Shown here piece by piece: positions 3,364 to 39,511 of a stretch of DNA of 64,000 nucleotides. The translations under genes and the position numbers were made by a program. The notes below the pieces were generated by a model. That model saw nothing but the letters and a program-made list of their open reading frames with translations, had not been told where the DNA came from and did not search any database. Each line of letters starts with the position of its first letter. The first letter of the stretch is position 1. Origin of the DNA: Candidatus Kapaibacterium sp. (GTDB lineage: Bacteria; Bacteroidota; Ignavibacteria; Kapaibacteriales; NICIL-2); assembly GCA_025055755.1 (NCBI GenBank), contig JANWWF010000005.1, positions 5,585-69,584 on the forward strand, read 5' to 3'.

Positions 3364-3371
3364 CAAAAATA
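3364..3371 (-). promoter_or_regulatory. Bacteroidota-type -7 promoter box (TATTTTTG) for tRNA-Cys
   Basis: TAnnTTTG consensus ending 7 nt upstream of the tRNA 5' end. Confidence 0.55.
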
Positions 3372-6727: not shown

Positions 6728-7963
6728 CTACTTGAATCGAATACGCGGATCGACGATCGCCAGCGCAAGGTCGGAGAGAATCGAACCAATCAGGGTGATA
6801 ACCACGCTTATCACGGTGAAAGCAAACACAATTGGATAGTCCCGAGCGACCAATGCTTCAAACGATAACTGCCCAATACCCTGAATATCGAAGACGCGCT
6901 CGATTAGGTACGAGCCTGCAAAGAACACTCCAATCACATAGCCAATATTCGCTGTAATGGGGATGATTGAGTTACGCATTGCATGGAGCCAAATAACACG
7001 TTGCTCGCGGATACCCTTTGCAAAAGCAGTGCGAATGTAATCGCTCGAAAGAGTATCCAGCAGTGAGTTTTTCATAAGCATTGTTAAGACCGCAAAGCTG
7101 CCGGCAGTATAGGCAATTGTTGGCAGAACAAAGTGGTATGCCCGGTCCCAAATTTTCTCCCATAGGTTCATTTCTGCATAGAGAGGATCTTCAAAGCCGC
7201 CGAGCGGGAATATCGGGAAGAAGCGGTCGGTCGCCAGCAGTACCAGTAGCACTGCTCCAATTGCCCACCCAGGGATGGAGTAGGTCATAAACACCGCACT
7301 TGAAGTCGCAAAGTCAAACGGTGTGTTGTGCCGCAATGCTTTCTGAACGCCTAAGTAGATGCTGATTGCGTAGCTTAGGACAAAACTGATGATACCAAAT
7401 TGAATCGAAACAGGCAAGCGCTCGGCGATAAGATCGAGAACCGGCTTGCGAAATCGGTATGAACGACCAAAGTCTCCTGTCAGGATACCACTGAAGGCTT
7501 CCCGATAGACCCGATAGCGCTCTTGTCCTGTCTCTTCGTCCACTTCACGGCGCCATTTCCAATCTCCTACCGGCTTAGCCGGATCATCGGCATTTCGCAG
7601 AACATACTTGTCGCCTTCTTTCACGAGCACCAAGCGCTCTTTCTCACCAACTAAGCGTGGCACACCCGGTTGAATACGGTATGATTTCGCCTCCCGTTTC
7701 ATGACCCCCAGCCAGATGAGATAGCGCTGCCAGATTGGTTTGTCAAACCCGTAAAATCGCTTTAGTTCTTCGATTGCGTCTTTCGGGAGGGCTTGTTCAC
7801 CGACCAAGCCAGCTCCTGCTGCCTCGCCACCGCGCTTGAGTGCTTGAATTTGCTGCTCAAGCGGTCCCCCCGGAGCAAGCTGGACAATCAAAAACACTAC
7901 AAATGTGCTCCCAAGGAAGGTTGGTATTGTGAGCAATATCCGCCGGATAAAGTACTCGACCAT
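6728..7963 (-). CDS. Peptide ABC transporter permease (OppB/YejB-like) with ~70-aa insertion
   Basis: YFIRRILLTIPT, APGGPLEQ, GDFGRS, DYIRTAFAKG, HAMRNS, RDYPIV, DPRIRF. Confidence 0.92.
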   Translation of the reverse strand: MVEYFIRRILLTIPTFLGSTFVVFLIVQLAPGGPLEQQIQALKRGGEAAGAGLVGEQALPKDAIEELKRFYGFDKPIWQRYLIWLGVMKREAKSYRIQPGVPRLVGEKERLVLVKEGDKYVLRNADDPAKPVGDWKWRREVDEETGQERYRVYREAFSGILTGDFGRSYRFRKPVLDLIAERLPVSIQFGIISFVLSYAISIYLGVQKALRHNTPFDFATSSAVFMTYSIPGWAIGAVLLVLLATDRFFPIFPLGGFEDPLYAEMNLWEKIWDRAYHFVLPTIAYTAGSFAVLTMLMKNSLLDTLSSDYIRTAFAKGIREQRVIWLHAMRNSIIPITANIGYVIGVFFAGSYLIERVFDIQGIGQLSFEALVARDYPIVFAFTVISVVITLIGSILSDLALAIVDPRIRFK

Positions 7964-7991
7964 TGCTTGGTTGGTCTAAGAAGTGGAACTA

Positions 7992-21986: not shown

Positions 21987-21994
21987 CAAATATA
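21987..21994 (-). promoter_or_regulatory. Bacteroidota-type -7 box (TATATTTG) for tRNA-Gln-prs-rplY
   Basis: TAnnTTTG consensus ~27 nt upstream of the tRNA. Confidence 0.55.
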
Positions 21995-34521: not shown

Positions 34522-36308
34522 TGCTTCACCGTTCGAGATGGTGGCACATCCAGGGCATAGTACACCACGCTGGTCTTCCACGGTCCTTGGTAAAGTCCGG
34601 CAACAGACTTTCTCGCAGCATCCCAGACGATGTTAACAAGTTGCTGCTTCTTGTACTCGCGGGGCAGTTGCCATTCTCCCTTCAGCGTTTTCGTCTGCAG
34701 GTCATACTGCTGCACCACCCAAAAGCCGTAGTCATTATCACGCAGTGGGTGGCCCTGTTGCTTGATTTTCCAGAGCACCCACACATGCGCAGGGGTCAAA
34801 ATCACTCGCTTTATCTCCGCACCAGCAGAATCGAGAAGGTATTCTATCTCCTCCGCTGTCGGAGTTGTTTGCTTTTCCTCACGCTGCGCTGTGTCGAGCA
34901 TCGCTTTATTCCAGTAGTGACGCAGCGGTATTCGATCTCCATCGCTAAATTCAATTTCTATCCCCAGCCACTGCGCCCACGCACACCGCTCTCTTTCCGT
35001 ATCGCAACCAAGAATGTTTGAATCGTGTTCGAGAGAAAATCCGATTCCGTACTTTTTTCGGAGCTTGCTAAGAGAGCCGTAAGTATCCCCGAGAAAGCCA
35101 CCGCTCTCGAAACTGAATACACCAAAAAGTGGCGAAATGGTATAATACTCATCGGCAAAGGGATTGTCGTATGGATTGGCTGGAATTGTATCACCAGCTT
35201 CTATTCGCCCGCGGAAAAAGGGAAGGCAGAATTTGTCTTTGCTCGCGATAACTAATCCCTCTGAAGGTGAGAAGAATGCATTCCTATCCTGCACACATTC
35301 TCTACAATAGCTGGGTATGTACAAGTTGTCAATTTCAATGGAAGAAATAGGTGAGCACTGTGGCAATTGGTATCCGAGCAAATGATAGCTTTTCCATATC
35401 CCTGTAGCACTTGAGTCACGGCTCGGCCAGCGGCGGTATGATTGAACATAGTAGCTGACCTGAATAGTCCACAATACCGACTCATCATCAAATTGCGGGC
35501 GCAGTAGGGCACTGTGTAAGTACGGTTCTATATCCTTGTACGCCGAATCAGAAAGGAACCATGACAGCGCCCGGCTAACTACTTTGAACGGTCGTAAACA
35601 GCAAATCAGCTTCCCTGACAGTGCTTCATAAACGCAAACACTAAGATTAGTGCCATCCCACAAAGCCAACCATTTCCCACACGGCGAAATTACCGGATGC
35701 CATAGAAGACCTACCCCCGTTGTGCTGTCATCTTCCAATTCTACGACCTGGCTTATACGAGCATAGGGCCACTTGCCTTCCTGAATCCCTACCGACTGTG
35801 CATAAACTTGTGACTCAAAATTCGGCAAGAGCGGTTGGGAAGAAGCCGATAGCGAATCAAGGAAACGCTGTAGCAACGGACCTGTTGGAACACGCTCAAC
35901 GTGACTCCACCACCATAGTGCACCGGTGGAATCCCAAATTGTGAGTACCGGAAGATCTGAGCTTCTCAGCCCAACTGCTCGCAGCACAGCACCTGTTGAG
36001 TCAATGTACAAAGGGACGTTCCACCCCAGCGAACGCAGGTACGCAATCTCGCTATAGTAGCGCCTTATGCCTACAATCGCGGTTATAGATCCACTAAACT
36101 TTTGCTGCCTCAATTGCTCGATGAGCACTCCAATAAGCGCATCTCCTGCAGGAAATAGCCGCGGACGAGGCACGATAAACATTGCATGGAATCGTGCTCG
36201 CTCTGGTTGCTTTTGCAGGTAATTGCGGAAAAATTCGGACCTGACCCCCAGCTTAGAGCTTTGGGCTGCTACGGAGTAGCATAGGATGAACAACACTACT
36301 GCTGTCAT
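34518..36308 (-). CDS. Secreted hypothetical protein: thioredoxin-like domain lacking CxxC plus probable beta-propeller
   Basis: Signal peptide MTAVVLFILCYSVAAQ; VPLYIDSTGAVLRAVGL..DLPVLTIWDSTG redoxin-like; PVISPCGKWLALWD propeller-like blade. Confidence 0.6.
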   Translation of the reverse strand: MTAVVLFILCYSVAAQSSKLGVRSEFFRNYLQKQPERARFHAMFIVPRPRLFPAGDALIGVLIEQLRQQKFSGSITAIVGIRRYYSEIAYLRSLGWNVPLYIDSTGAVLRAVGLRSSDLPVLTIWDSTGALWWWSHVERVPTGPLLQRFLDSLSASSQPLLPNFESQVYAQSVGIQEGKWPYARISQVVELEDDSTTGVGLLWHPVISPCGKWLALWDGTNLSVCVYEALSGKLICCLRPFKVVSRALSWFLSDSAYKDIEPYLHSALLRPQFDDESVLWTIQVSYYVQSYRRWPSRDSSATGIWKSYHLLGYQLPQCSPISSIEIDNLYIPSYCRECVQDRNAFFSPSEGLVIASKDKFCLPFFRGRIEAGDTIPANPYDNPFADEYYTISPLFGVFSFESGGFLGDTYGSLSKLRKKYGIGFSLEHDSNILGCDTERERCAWAQWLGIEIEFSDGDRIPLRHYWNKAMLDTAQREEKQTTPTAEEIEYLLDSAGAEIKRVILTPAHVWVLWKIKQQGHPLRDNDYGFWVVQQYDLQTKTLKGEWQLPREYKKQQLVNIVWDAARKSVAGLYQGPWKTSVVYYALDVPPSRTVKQ

Positions 36309-36351
36309 TCTTGACCTATGTTTTTTCTTAAAACTATAACAAAAAGCAACC

Positions 36352-36654
36352 CTATGGTAAGTCAACGTACGCCTCGGTACCATCCGCGTTAGTCCCAAGT
36401 AAATGGCACGGAGATTGGAAGGTCAACTGTTCATCGTCGTACAACTGTAAATCATCAGGAAATTGGGGATTGGAGGGATAGACATTGCGAATGATAATCG
36501 CGCAGGGAGTTCGTGAGGGTCGTTCACAAATTACCGTTCCATCAGGACGGCATATTCCCTTCTTTCCGTAGAGGATGACTATCGGTATTCCATACGCCTC
36601 CGTGGCAGTTCCCAGAAGCATCACCACGAACAGTGATAAGACAGCCTTCCACAT
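36352..36654 (-). CDS. Small secreted 4-Cys protein (100 aa)
   Basis: Clear signal peptide MWKAVLSLFVVMLLGTATEAYG; mature part with 4 Cys; fills an otherwise empty gap, co-oriented with downstream genes. Confidence 0.65.
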   Translation of the reverse strand: MWKAVLSLFVVMLLGTATEAYGIPIVILYGKKGICRPDGTVICERPSRTPCAIIIRNVYPSNPQFPDDLQLYDDEQLTFQSPCHLLGTNADGTEAYVDLP

Positions 36655-36688
36655 AGCAATCACCTGAGTGGAACAACACCTTCCTTTT

Positions 36689-36805
36689 CGCTCTCCCCTG
36701 CAGGCGCGGCTGGTAATACAGCGCTGCAGTAGTGCCCTGGAAAGCGCCGCACACCTCTTCCCACTCACCACCACACCGTTGTATTACCACTGCAGGGAAG
36801 GAGCG
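36689..36805. other. Long imperfect inverted repeat / rod-like RNA hairpin
   Basis: TGGTAATACA(36711-20)/TGTATTACCA(36780-89) and CCCTGCAG/CTGCAGGG arms; further G-U pairing only on the minus strand. Confidence 0.6.
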
Positions 36806-36831
36806 GCAGCGCGAACCTGCACAACGCATGT

Positions 36832-36865
36832 AAAAAAAATTAACTCGCAGTAAAATCGAGATTAA
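36832..36865 (-). terminator. Probable intrinsic terminator after the NlpC/P60 gene
   Basis: TTAA-CTCG...CGAG-A-TTAA stem followed on minus strand by a run of T. Confidence 0.45.
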
Positions 36866-36923
36866 ACTTCATCATTCTGTCACACAAGCTTTGCCGCAGC
36901 GAGAACTATCCCCCTTCCTCCGT

Positions 36924-37676
36924 TCACCGCAACTCAGAACGCAGGGCAAGGTGCTGGAGGTCCCCAAGCGTCAAGCGGCGCCCGCCCAAGAAACGGGTGC
37001 GGTAGTACGTGCTCTCCAACGAGGAAATCGTCACCCCATAGCGCGAGCTGGCATGCGCAAAGAGATTATCGCCCAAATAGATGCCCACATGCGACACCCA
37101 CGCATGGCGACGGGTGTGGAAAAATACCAAATCGCCAAACTGGAGCTGGTCGGCTCGTTCGATAGGTTGCCCATACGCAAATTGCTCCTGTGCAGTACGC
37201 GGCAACAATGCCCCCGTGCACGTCCGAAAAAGCGCTTGCATAAATGCCGAGCAGTCGATTCCTTCTTCCGTCGTTCCCCCGAAGCGATAGGGACGTCCCA
37301 GCCACTCCATGACAAATTCCATCACTTTGCGGGGGGAAAGTCCCGAGGGAAGTTCTTCTCCCTCCAGAAATGCCATCCAGAGTGTTCGAATAGTGGCAAT
37401 ATCCACAGGGACATCGTCTTCGCGAGCGACTTCGTCAGCGTCATCACCATCGAGCACTTCCGGTTCACCACTGCGCAAGCCCGCCAGTTGCTGGAGCGAT
37501 GGAGAAGCCTGCGTTGCCAGAAGATTCATCGCCAGGCGCTTGCCTTCTTGCGTGCGGCAAAGCCGTCCACTAATGCGCCGCTTCGGGCTTTTCTTTTTTC
37601 CTGCCGCAAGCACTGGTTCTACTACCCCCATTCCAAAGAGCATTGCCACGACAATACAGAGCACAAACGGACGCAT
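36924..37676 (-). CDS. NlpC/P60 (C40) peptidoglycan endopeptidase, secreted
   Basis: WLGRPYRFGG, GIDCSAF (Cys), GDLVFF, SHVGIY (His), FAHAS; signal peptide from ATG 37676. Confidence 0.92.
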   Translation of the reverse strand: MRPFVLCIVVAMLFGMGVVEPVLAAGKKKSPKRRISGRLCRTQEGKRLAMNLLATQASPSLQQLAGLRSGEPEVLDGDDADEVAREDDVPVDIATIRTLWMAFLEGEELPSGLSPRKVMEFVMEWLGRPYRFGGTTEEGIDCSAFMQALFRTCTGALLPRTAQEQFAYGQPIERADQLQFGDLVFFHTRRHAWVSHVGIYLGDNLFAHASSRYGVTISSLESTYYRTRFLGGRRLTLGDLQHLALRSELR

Positions 37677-37819
37677 GCAAGTCCTCCAACCACATAGTTC
37701 AACATTCCACTGTTCTTGGTCGCGACCGGCATCGAACAGCTCGGTCACGTGTTACCGGCCCACCGCGCCACCACTTTCCAGGCGCTACGGCAGCCGTAAC
37801 AACAGGGGCTGGTGCGTTT

Positions 37820-39511
37820 CTACCTTCGTTTGCGCACCCGTTCGAGCACCAGCCGATCGAGAGGATCAAGCCTCATCCCCTCGACGAACGGATGCACCAG
37901 ACGCACAAGGCGTCCATGGTAGAGGAACACCCACGGCGCATCGTCCACGACTATCCGCTCCATTTCCCGATAACGCTTCCGCTGCACGGCAGTATCGCCT
38001 GTTGCAATAGCGGAGCGGTAGAGAGCATCGGCACGGTCGTTGCGATATCGAGTCGTGTTCGGTCCGTTGGGTGCAAGGTTGCTACTGACAAAGAGCGCAA
38101 GGAAATTTTCTGCATCCGGGTAATCGGCCACCCAGCTTGTTCGCCACAGGGCAAGCTCGCCTGCGCGCACCATCGCCAGCAGGCGAGGGAACTCCACCTG
38201 CTGGAGCTCGACGCGGACACCGATTTCCGCCCACTGCTGCTGCACTACCTCAGCAACGGAAAGGCTACGGACGCTCGTACCCAACACAAGGCGCAGTGAT
38301 GGCAACCCTTTGCCCTCCGGAAAGCCTGCCTCTGCCAGCAGACGACGCGCCCGATCGGGGTCGTAGCGGTAGCACTCCGTCTGCTCTATTCGGAATGCAG
38401 GTGGCAGCACACCATGTGCAGGCACCGCTGTTCCGCGCAATACATAACGCACAATTCGCTCGCGATCGATTGCATAGTTGAGTGCCTGCCGTACCAAGCG
38501 CGAGTGTGCCAGCACACTGGTTTTGCCTGCCGCAAGCGTCGTATCGAGCAGAATGCCGTAGTACTCCGTGCTGAGCGCGGGAGCTGTCAGCAGCCGAAAG
38601 CGTCCGCGGTAGGCAGGACAGAGTGTGCCATCAAGCTGCAACACTACTGCCGCGAACGCTGGGTCCAGACTTGTCAAAAGATCAAGGTGGCCACGCCGAA
38701 ATTCTGCGAACTCTGTCCGCTGGTCCCGAATGAACGAAATTTGAACGGCGCGAAGATACGGAAGGCGCCCCCCATTTTCATCACGCCGCCAGTATCGGTC
38801 ATTGCGGAGCAGTACCAGCTCGCGATCCTGTTTCCACCAGCCGATGCGGAAGGGACCTGTCCCCACCGGATGTTCGCCGAACCGATCGCCGTAGTACTCG
38901 ACTGCTTCGCGGGGAACAATCCACGCATACGGCATGGCAAGCAGCGAAAGAAACGGTGCAAACGGATGCGAGAGCACAAACTCCACCGTTGTGTCGTCCA
39001 GAACGCGGATGCCTCGGCAATGTCCAGGGTTGTCGCCGCGGCGAGTTGCATCATGGAATTCCCGCGCTCCCTCAAGCCGGTCGAGAAAGACCCATAGCCC
39101 CGGCGACCGCGTCCGCGCATCGAGAATCCGCTCGATCGAGTAGCGCACATCCTCTGCCGTGCAGCGGCGACTCCGCTGCGAGCCAAAGCAGGGGTCTTCG
39201 TGAAACCAAACATCTTTTCGGAGAACAAAGCGCCATCGCCGAAGGGTGGAATCAACGCTCCACCGCACCGCAAGTGCAGGGGTAGGGCGAAGCAAGGAAT
39301 CAAACTCTACCAGCCCATTGAATAGCTGCGTTCCTGCCCAAATGGCGGCTTGATAACTTGCCTGTGCGGGGTCGAGCGAGGCAATGCCGCTGGGCTCGTT
39401 GTAGCGGAGCGTTTCTGCTTCGTTCAGCTTCGCATGCTCACCACATCCCTGCACCAGCAGCGCCAGCAATAGGAGCGCCCCCACTGTAGCGCCCGCGTGA
39501 TGCCGGTGCAC
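37820..39511 (-). CDS. Orphan ABC transporter substrate-binding lipoprotein (family 5)
   Basis: Lipobox LVQGC; SLDPA, LFNGLV, TAEDVRYSIER, PVGTGPF, VRQALNYAIDR, W.ADYPDAENFL. Confidence 0.88.
   Translation of the reverse strand: MHRHHAGATVGALLLLALLVQGCGEHAKLNEAETLRYNEPSGIASLDPAQASYQAAIWAGTQLFNGLVEFDSLLRPTPALAVRWSVDSTLRRWRFVLRKDVWFHEDPCFGSQRSRRCTAEDVRYSIERILDARTRSPGLWVFLDRLEGAREFHDATRRGDNPGHCRGIRVLDDTTVEFVLSHPFAPFLSLLAMPYAWIVPREAVEYYGDRFGEHPVGTGPFRIGWWKQDRELVLLRNDRYWRRDENGGRLPYLRAVQISFIRDQRTEFAEFRRGHLDLLTSLDPAFAAVVLQLDGTLCPAYRGRFRLLTAPALSTEYYGILLDTTLAAGKTSVLAHSRLVRQALNYAIDRERIVRYVLRGTAVPAHGVLPPAFRIEQTECYRYDPDRARRLLAEAGFPEGKGLPSLRLVLGTSVRSLSVAEVVQQQWAEIGVRVELQQVEFPRLLAMVRAGELALWRTSWVADYPDAENFLALFVSSNLAPNGPNTTRYRNDRADALYRSAIATGDTAVQRKRYREMERIVVDDAPWVFLYHGRLVRLVHPFVEGMRLDPLDRLVLERVRKRR

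What the first reader, a model, noticed from the sequence alone, without database searches (positions are those of the whole stretch)
36689..36805. 117-nt rod-like hairpin with minus-strand G-U bias upstream of the microprotein gene
Seen on the minus strand, nested helices CGCTCC/GAGAGCG, CCCTGCAG/CTGCAGGG, a 7-nt bulge, TGGTAATACAACG/CGCTGTATTACCA, GTGGTGGTG/CACTACTGC (G-U pairs) and TGGGAAG/CTTTCCA. The inner helices pair only through G-U on the minus strand, which suggests selection on RNA structure in the sense of the downstream cassette. It ends ~35 nt before ATG 36654 and sits at the edge of the AT-richer segment. I could not match it to SRP, 6S or a riboswitch I know. Inference: an unannotated cis-regulatory leader or sRNA, or alternatively a mobile-element end/MITE remnant marking the insertion.
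Basis: partly seen in the sequence, partly recalled or inferred. Interest (0 to 1): 0.55.

Follow-up and report, generated by a model that had tools for sequence, protein, structure and literature searches.

The report
Conserved rod-shaped RNA leader, Kapabacteria
The 117-base hairpin is real and belongs to a previously undescribed structured RNA, found in five related hot-spring bacteria just ahead of genes for small secreted proteins; it most likely controls the fate of their messenger RNA, but how is not yet shown.

Summary
Observation confirmed. Window 36689-36805 (minus strand) folds into a ~46-bp rod (-65.5 kcal/mol, z -5.6), and the opposite strand is 16 kcal/mol weaker. It matches no Rfam family, is single-copy in its genome and has no BLASTN relatives.

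The same architecture recurs at 7 places in 5 of the 8 species of this hot-spring Kapabacteria genus: a 16-bp outer stem, a 7-nt 3' bulge, a ~30-bp inner stem and an 11-12-nt loop. Each copy ends 30-39 nt before the start codon of a small signal-peptide, Cys-rich protein gene. These genes fall into two types with no detectable sequence similarity.

Stems co-vary heavily: 95.8% of cells are paired and 25 of 48 pairs have compensatory changes (0 of 500 shuffles reach this). G·U pairs and folding energy favour the sense strand in every copy. Only the loop (GYGCGGC) and the bulge (GCCGCRC) are conserved in sequence. They are exactly complementary, with one co-varying position.

MITE/REP, intrinsic terminator, attC-like site, coding region and thermometer readings were tested and not met. 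The best reading is a new, genus-restricted cis-acting 5'-leader RNA, acting as a stabiliser or RNase III processing element with specific recognition sites. Transcription and mechanism remain untested. Look-ups in earlier scan notes by look-alike sequence found nothing like it on other DNA.

The parts
36689..36805 (-). Whole rod-like hairpin (RNA sense = minus strand), about 46 bp
   Evidence: RNAfold -65.5 kcal/mol, z -5.6. CM R1 hit at 36678-36812, 101.9 bits. Covariation in 7 homologous copies.
36790..36805 (-). P1 outer stem, 5' strand (pyrimidine-rich CGCUCCUUCCCUGCAG)
   Evidence: Helix 1: 16 pairs, 7 with changes on both sides, 94.5% paired.
36689..36703 (-). P1 outer stem, 3' strand (purine-rich CUGCAGGGGAGAGCG, SD-like GGAG inside the helix)
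36704..36710 (-). 7-nt 3' bulge GCCGCGC. Sequence-conserved (GCCGCRC) in all copies and complementary to the apical loop.
   Evidence: Unpaired in every MFE fold. Helix 5: 7 pairs, 100% paired, one co-varying position.
36757..36789 (-). Inner stem (P2-P4), 5' arm
   Evidence: Helices 2-4: 17 of 25 pairs with changes on both sides.
36711..36744 (-). Inner stem (P2-P4), 3' arm
   Evidence: 29-31 inner bp, arms of 35-38 nt in all copies.
36745..36756 (-). Apical loop AGGUGUGCGGCG holding the conserved GUGCGGC (36746-36752)
   Evidence: GYGCGGCG is present in all 7 copies.
36655..36688 (-). Unstructured A-rich linker with Shine-Dalgarno-like GGUGA (36660-36664) before ATG 36654
   Evidence: Sequence reading. 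Linker length is 30-39 nt in all copies, each with an SD-like motif 5-10 nt before the ATG.
36352..36654 (-). Downstream gene: 100-aa signal-peptide, Cys-rich 'type A' microprotein, first gene of the cassette
   Evidence: no Pfam; homologues only in genus.
36825..36842 (-). T-run with -7-box-like TAATTTTT / TACATGCG: candidate promoter region (weak in this genome; exact TACTTTTG box at the equivalent place in G003a)
   Evidence: Sequence reading. TAnnTTTG boxes precede both tRNA genes of the window. Inference only.

Best explanation
The hairpin is a structured RNA made as the 5' leader of the mRNA for the downstream secreted-protein operon, and it acts in cis. It is a new RNA family restricted to part of one genus of hot-spring Kapabacteria.

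Shown: a ~46-bp rod whose pairing, but not its sequence, is conserved. It has sense-strand G.U bias, a fixed 30-39-nt distance to the start codon of whichever small secreted-protein gene follows, and no room for a promoter or terminator in between. The unit that is duplicated is 'upstream ~115-135 nt + rod', placed in front of genes with no detectable similarity.

Inferred mechanism: transcription starts just upstream. In G003a a TACTTTTG -7 box ends 5-6 nt before the rod. The very stable rod (still about -30 to -36 kcal/mol at 65 C) sits at or near the 5' end of the message. There it sets the mRNA's lifetime, either by shielding the 5' end from 5'-end-dependent decay or by serving as an RNase III processing site. 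It also keeps the downstream ribosome-binding site free.

The two sequence-conserved single-stranded patches, the loop GYGCGGC and the bulge GCCGCRC, are specific recognition sites. They either pair with each other between molecules or bind a factor that tunes this step.
For: Structure and significance. Seven copies in 5 of 8 species, found only with a covariance model. BLASTN found none. Covariation: a MAFFT-only alignment gives 17 of 44 pairs compensatory. The CM alignment gives 95.8% paired and 25 of 48 pairs compensatory, with 0 of 500 shuffles reaching this and slid controls at 53% paired or less. Sense strand is 12-24 kcal/mol more stable with 3-10 G.U pairs, against 0-3 in the antisense, in every copy. 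Each copy lies 30-39 nt before the ATG of a signal-peptide, Cys-rich ORF with an SD-like motif. Type A and type B ORFs show no detectable similarity (E = 18). Presence or absence of the rod tracks presence of these genes across the genus. Duplicated module boundaries. Thermal stability. RNase III gene present. Precedents for 5' stem-loop stabilisers (ompA, aprE, vacA, recA) and for RNase III leader processing that stabilises or destabilises: PMC7509114 and PMC5371410.
Against: There is no transcript data, so the TSS, the transcription of the rod and any processing are all untested. The window's own copy has no exact TAnnTTTG box and sits about 18-30 nt after the best candidates. In the G006 group no promoter could be placed, so the rod may not be 5'-terminal there. 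A simple stabiliser needs neither ~46 bp nor conserved loop and bulge sequences. Only about 4 independent lineages exist, so covariation statistics are inflated by relatedness, and the A2 alignment was fitted to the structure. Further metagenomic copies could not be retrieved.
Confidence: 0.55

Rival explanations
1. Sensor hairpin for feedback or signal-dependent control. A protein or small RNA recognises the conserved loop and bulge and switches translation or decay of the operon, in the manner of the rne hp2 stem-loop. The rod is then a scaffold that presents two binding patches.
For: Only the loop and bulge are conserved in sequence while the stems drift. Both contain a GCSGC core, so one dimeric factor could read both. 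Precedent: the rne 5' UTR stem-loop that senses RNase E (PMC7509114).
Against: No candidate binding protein or partner RNA was identified. The bulge motif is not concentrated at other loci. The exact 7-nt complementarity and the U-A / C-G / U.G series are more simply explained by pairing than by a shared protein site.
Confidence: 0.17
2. The rod is, or is processed into, an independent trans-acting small RNA whose loop pairs with targets elsewhere.
For: It is a stable, conserved hairpin with an exposed conserved GC-rich loop. The A-rich single-stranded tract right after the rod could be an endonuclease site that releases it.
Against: No U-tract or other terminator follows it (sequence). It is always 30-39 nt from a start codon in the same orientation. 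It travels with the upstream promoter-like region in front of different genes.
Confidence: 0.12
3. DNA-level element: a recombination or attC-like site, a cruciform operator, or a mobile-element remnant marking the borders of shuffled gene modules.
For: Imperfect palindromes conserved in structure rather than sequence, strand-asymmetric, with extrahelical bases, at the head of gene modules. The order and presence of these modules differ between species at one chromosomal locus downstream of NlpC/P60. In duplex DNA the loop and bulge motifs are the same 7-mer in inverted orientation.
Against: Single copy in its own genome. No RYYYAAC/GTTRRRY cores (sequence). No tyrosine recombinase on the 76-kb contig, none within ~490 kb in the complete genome G006 and none on the G003 contig. 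There are 3-10 G.U pairs per copy that would be A-C mismatches on the other strand. Spacing to the downstream ATG is constant.
Confidence: 0.07
4. 3' end structure of the upstream gene: a U-tract-less terminator or 3' exonuclease barrier for the NlpC/P60 mRNA.
For: It lies 118 nt after the NlpC/P60 stop codon. Stable 3' hairpins protect mRNAs (PMC7509114).
Against: Upstream genes and distances differ between copies (118 nt to ~880 nt; NlpC/P60, the Kelch protein or the 610-aa protein), while the downstream spacing is constant. No U-tract is present. G003 has a separate terminator-like stem upstream of the T-run.
Confidence: 0.05

Closest known systems
5'-terminal stabiliser stem-loops of mRNAs for exported proteins (E. 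coli ompA 5' UTR; B. subtilis aprE leader; H. pylori vacA 5' stem-loop)
   Same: A stem-loop in the 5' leader, upstream of an unpaired ribosome-binding site, ahead of genes for secreted or envelope proteins. These are known to prolong mRNA life (PMC7509114).
   Different: Several times longer (~46 bp), with a sequence-conserved loop and 7-nt bulge that a plain stabiliser does not need. The 5'-terminal position is inferred only from a -7-like box in one lineage. No sequence relationship.
RNase III-processed leader hairpins (E. coli pnp and rnc leaders, phage lambda N leader, T7 early processing signals)
   Same: A long dsRNA rod of 20 bp or more, interrupted by small internal loops or bulges, in a 5' leader. 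Cleavage can stabilise or destabilise the downstream message (PMC5371410). An RNase III gene is present in this genome.
   Different: No cleavage evidence here and no sequence similarity. The loop-bulge complementarity has no counterpart in those leaders (own knowledge).
rne 5' UTR hp2 sensor stem-loop (Rfam rne5 family)
   Same: A conserved leader hairpin whose internal unpaired nucleotides are the recognition feature for feedback control (PMC7509114).
   Different: No Rfam match, a different gene context, and a much longer stem.
Integron attC recombination sites
   Same: Imperfect palindromes of 57-141 nt conserved in structure but not sequence, strand-asymmetric, with extrahelical bases, lying between gene cassettes that vary between strains (own knowledge).
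   Different: No R''/R' core sequences and no integron integrase nearby. A 7-nt bulge instead of single extrahelical bases. G.U-dependent pairing and fixed spacing to the next start codon.
Kissing or loop-receptor RNA pairs (HIV-1 DIS, ColE1 RNA I/II, designed tectoRNA dimers)
   Same: Short GC-rich complementary unpaired segments presented on helices. In tectoRNA a loop and its receptor on one rod drive head-to-tail dimers (own knowledge).
   Different: Here the partner is a bulge about 30 bp down the same rod. No experiment or modelling has been done, and only one co-varying position supports the pairing.

Membership tests
Any Rfam 15 family (SRP, 6S, riboswitches, Chlorobi-1, Bacteroidales-1 etc.) | Covariance-model score at or above gathering threshold, or at least E < 1 | tested here: not met
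   No hit overlapping the hairpin at E <= 10 in window 35500-38000. The gathering scan of the whole window finds only 2 tRNAs. No hit on the G003, G006 or G002 copies at E <= 1.
MITE / REP-like repeat | Many dispersed copies in the genome | tested here: not met
   One copy in the 2.34-Mb genome by BLASTN and by CM. Other genomes hold 1-2 copies, all at the syntenic locus.
Intrinsic (Rho-independent) terminator | GC-rich stem-loop immediately followed by a U-tract | tested here: not met
   The terminator scan finds none in 36200-37200. In all copies the rod is followed by A-rich sequence.
Integron attC site | R'' RYYYAAC and R' GTTRRRY core sites at the base of the stem | tested here: not met
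   The stem base reads CCGCYC.../...GRGRGCGG in all copies, with no GTTRRRY.
Integron attC site | Adjacent integron integrase (tyrosine recombinase) and attI | tested here: not met
   PF00589 hits lie only on other contigs in G000. In G006 the nearest is about 490 kb away, and there is none on G003 contig C9.
5'-terminal mRNA stabiliser stem-loop (ompA/aprE type) | Stem-loop within a few nucleotides of the transcript's 5' end | not testable with these tools
   The TSS is unknown. In G003a TACTTTTG ends 5-6 nt before the rod, and G003b has TACATTCG at the same distance. The window has no exact TAnnTTTG.
5'-terminal mRNA stabiliser stem-loop (ompA/aprE type) | Located upstream of, and not occluding, the ribosome-binding site | tested here: met
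   SD-like motifs lie 5-10 nt before each ATG and 20-30 nt downstream of the rod, unpaired in the folds.
RNase III substrate | About 20 bp or more of near-continuous dsRNA, with the enzyme encoded in the genome | tested here: met
   P1 of 16 bp plus P2-P4 of 29-31 bp. PF14622 hit at 132 bits at G000:C48:37767-38153. Actual cleavage is not testable here.
RNA thermometer (ROSE / fourU) | SD or start codon sequestered in a marginally stable helix that melts on warming | tested here: not met
   The real SD is outside the rod. The rod remains at -30 to -36 kcal/mol at 65 C.
Protein-coding region | One reading frame open and conserved across all copies | tested here: not met
   No frame is stop-free in all 7 copies. 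The substitutions are pair-compensating.

The most novel reading that the evidence does not exclude
The exactly complementary apical loop (GYGCGGC) and 7-nt bulge (GCCGCRC) are separated by about three helical turns of rigid helix, so they cannot meet within one molecule. They would instead make two reciprocal kissing contacts between two leaders lying head-to-tail. This would be a natural 'tectoRNA-like' mRNA dimer, or a hetero-dimer between the type A and type B operon leaders in genomes with two copies. It would couple the stability or translation of the messages at hot-spring temperature.
Probability: 0.15. Interest if true: 0.7.

Novelty: new variant of a known kind. Interest (0 to 1): 0.45.

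Why it matters
Structured 5' leaders are a known way to set mRNA fate. This one is a family with no described relative, in an uncultured thermophilic lineage (Kapabacteria) where almost nothing is known about post-transcriptional control. It heads fast-evolving operons for secreted disulfide-loop proteins of unknown role, and it appears to travel together with its upstream region as a portable expression module. Its design is unusual: a long rod whose only conserved letters are a loop and a bulge that are perfect complements. If the complementarity is functional, it would be a natural example of loop-bulge mediated RNA-RNA assembly and a thermostable expression part. If not, it is one more genus-specific leader motif to add to RNA family databases.

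Tried and rejected
1. Rfam at permissive thresholds, on the window and on three relatives' loci: nothing.
2. BLASTN of the hairpin against its own genome and 60 relatives: only itself. Homologues were found only by synteny plus folding and then by CM.
4. The same pattern on viral contigs: only weak, gapped CM hits.
5. Protein route to more loci. The genome-contig scan with the 620-aa partner returned only the three relatives already known, and gave the organism names.
6. Weak CM hits in G004, G005 and G008, and upstream regions of distant type B homologues: not rods of this type.
7. Terminator, sigma-70 promoter, sigma-54 and ECF-like readings of the flanks: no convincing conserved match (sequence reading). 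TAnnTTTG is not enriched in the window and has no exact match before the window's hairpin.
8. attC/integron, MITE, thermometer and coding readings: rejected (see the membership tests).
9. The bulge motif as a genome-wide operator: 20 sites, not concentrated at any other locus and not checked for coding context; no sign of a regulon.
10. A first genome-wide palindrome scan used too strict a threshold and was polluted by runs of N. It was recalibrated.

Full report
OBSERVATION. There is a 16-bp outer stem with one unpaired C, then a 7-nt 3' bulge GCCGCGC, then a ~30-bp inner stem with a few mismatches and a 2x3 internal loop, and a 12-nt apical loop AGGUGUGCGGCG. The energy is -65.5 kcal/mol, against -45.0 +/- 3.7 for dinucleotide shuffles (z -5.6). 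The complementary strand reaches only -49.0, because several pairs are G.U on the minus strand. The hairpin ends 34 nt before ATG 36654. It sits where the AT-richer cassette (GC 0.44-0.51) meets 0.55-0.61 GC DNA. A genome-wide search for palindrome-seeded rods puts it about 5th by energy. Most of those above it lie at the ends of short contigs, and one is the rRNA spacer stem.

NOT A KNOWN FAMILY, NOT A REPEAT. Rfam 15 gives no match at E <= 10 around the hairpin and only two tRNAs in the whole window at gathering thresholds. The homologous copies in relatives also give nothing. BLASTN finds one copy in the 2.34-Mb genome and none in 60 relatives.

HOMOLOGUES BY SYNTENY. The flanking genes are an NlpC/P60 hydrolase upstream and, downstream, a 100-aa signal-peptide, Cys-rich protein and a 626-aa protein with no Pfam match. 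Searching relatives with these proteins located the syntenic locus in four other species of the genus. Sliding-window folding of those loci showed a rod of the same architecture in each, including the 7-nt 3' bulge. A covariance model built from six copies then recovered seven copies in 5 of the 8 species of the genus. It found none in the other three species, nor in 53 further genomes of the family and order. The weak hits were inspected and rejected. Record titles identify the relatives as hot-spring MAGs: Candidatus Kapabacteria bacterium KatS3mg040, and Chlorobiota isolates SKW43 and J074.

EVIDENCE FOR A SELECTED RNA STRUCTURE. On a plain MAFFT alignment, RNAalifold finds 44 pairs, 17 with compensatory double changes. 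On the CM alignment of all seven copies, 95.8% of cells form standard pairs and 25 of 48 pairs show changes on both sides. None of 500 column shuffles reach the observed values, and sliding the 3' partners by 1-3 columns drops pairing to 29-53%. The caveats are that the alignment is fitted to the model and that only about four independent lineages exist: the window, G003a, G003b and the G006/G002/G001 group. In every copy the sense strand is 12-24 kcal/mol more stable than the antisense and carries 3-10 G.U pairs, against 0-3. This points to RNA, or at least one specific single strand, in the orientation of the downstream genes. No reading frame is open in all copies.

CONTEXT. Every copy ends 30-39 nt before the ATG of a small ORF with a signal peptide and several cysteines, preceded by an SD-like motif. 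Two gene types are served. Type A follows the window, G003a and G006a copies. Type B follows the G003b, G006b, G002 and G001 copies. The two types show no detectable similarity. The rod's presence across the genus tracks the presence of these genes. Distances to the upstream gene vary from 118 to about 880 nt, and the upstream gene differs between copies.

In the two genomes with two copies, the duplicated segment begins right after the upstream stop codon. It covers ~115-135 nt plus the rod and ends within ~8 nt after the rod. In G003 that shared upstream part contains a terminator-like GC stem, a long T-run and TACTTTTG (copy a) or TACATTCG (copy b), ending 5-6 nt before the rod. TAnnTTTG is the FCB-group -7 promoter box (own knowledge), and exact boxes sit just upstream of both tRNA genes of this window. 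The window's own copy has only approximate boxes (TAATTTTT, TACATGCG) 18-30 nt upstream, and no promoter could be placed for the G006 group. Between rod and ATG there is no room for a promoter, and no terminator follows the rod. The rod must therefore be part of the downstream gene's transcript if it is transcribed at all.

THE LOOP-BULGE PUZZLE. The stems drift freely, but two single-stranded patches are conserved in sequence: GYGCGGCG in the apical loop and GCCGCRCC at the bulge. The whole 7-nt bulge is the exact complement of 7 loop nucleotides in all copies. The one variable position changes in step: U-A in four copies, C-G in two, and U.G in the window. Such complementarity arises in 0.04-0.6% of random loop/bulge pairs, or 0.4-3% when the composition is kept. 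The duplex would be worth about -12 to -14 kcal/mol at 37 C and -7 to -9 at 65 C. The two patches are separated by 29-31 bp, with arms of 35-38 nt, or roughly three helical turns. An intramolecular contact therefore seems sterically implausible. The options are intermolecular head-to-tail kissing, pairing in another state, or two sites (GCSGC) for one factor. One co-varying column is only suggestive.

MECHANISM. The best-supported reading is a cis-acting 5' leader. Its length and stability (-30 to -36 kcal/mol at 65 C) suit a thermophile. Its position upstream of a free RBS parallels the 5' stem-loop stabilisers of ompA, aprE, vacA and recA (PMC7509114). A rod of 20 bp or more with bulges is also the classic RNase III substrate. 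The genome encodes RNase III, and RNase III cuts in leaders can either stabilise or destabilise messages (PMC5371410). The conserved loop and bulge imply an added layer of specific recognition. None of these steps is shown. Only the structure, its conservation, its strand and its linkage to the downstream start are shown.

REJECTED ALTERNATIVES.
- MITE/REP: the element is single-copy and syntenic.
- Intrinsic terminator: there is no U-tract.
- attC-like site: there are no core sites, no integrase on the contig, and the nearest in the complete relative genome is ~490 kb away.
- Thermometer: the SD is not sequestered and the rod is far too stable.
- Coding region: no frame is conserved.
- Phage origin: there is no CM match in viral contigs.

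LIMITS. Look-ups in this scan's earlier notes by look-alike sequence found no other window with this element.

VERDICT. This is a real, well-supported new structured-RNA motif of narrow distribution, most likely a leader controlling mRNA fate of secreted-protein operons, with an unusual and unexplained loop-bulge complementarity. Interest is moderate.

Noticed in passing
G000:C48:483235-483358 (minus strand; outside the window): Another rod-like hairpin with strong strand asymmetry (-66.8 vs -48.5 kcal/mol). It ends in GGGAAAAC and lies ~150 nt before a short-chain dehydrogenase-like ORF. It is unrelated in sequence to the family studied here.
   Followed up: no
L052:7423-7758 (-) (G006); also G003:C9:66279-66584 and G002:C116:28230-28562: 'Type B' 111-aa signal-peptide, Cys-rich protein that follows four of the seven hairpins. 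A second protein carrying a type-B-like domain lies ~0.6 kb downstream. Weak homologues occur in another family of the order.
   Followed up: partly
L051, L052 and L053 (G003, G006, G002 loci downstream of the NlpC/P60 gene): Modules of 'hairpin + small secreted protein + partner genes' are arranged in a different order and number in different species at the same chromosomal site. G006 has a tandem duplicate of the microprotein/620-aa pair.
   Followed up: partly
L051:763-900 vs L051:4763-4900 (minus strand): Within G003 the ~135 nt upstream of the two hairpins are ~90% identical, while the hairpins themselves are only ~55-60% identical yet keep pairing. This suggests either gene conversion of the promoter region or much faster, structure-constrained drift of the rod.
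   Followed up: no
L052:3960-3985 and 7955-7980 (approx., minus strand); also the G002 and G001 copies: A near-perfect palindrome (GCGCACACAATTGTGCGC in G006b, variants in the other copies) lies ~45 nt upstream of the rod in the G006-group copies. It may be an operator or a small leader hairpin.
   Followed up: no
window 3364-3371 (-) and 21987-21994 (-): Exact TAnnTTTG boxes lie 8 and 28 nt upstream of the two tRNA genes, consistent with FCB-type promoters in this genome, although the motif is not enriched over chance in the window as a whole.
   Followed up: partly
window 36352-36774 (-): The mechanical 140-aa ORF (GTG 36774) is an in-frame extension running through the hairpin. The likely true start is ATG 36654 with SD-like GGTGA at 36660-36664, giving the 100-aa secreted protein.
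   Followed up: yes
G000:C29:231-354: A very stable rod (-70.7 kcal/mol) lies in the 16S-23S spacer, right after the 16S 3' end (GGATCACCTCCTTTCT) and before a tRNA. It is probably the rRNA processing stem, and it shows that the organism has a canonical anti-SD.
   Followed up: no
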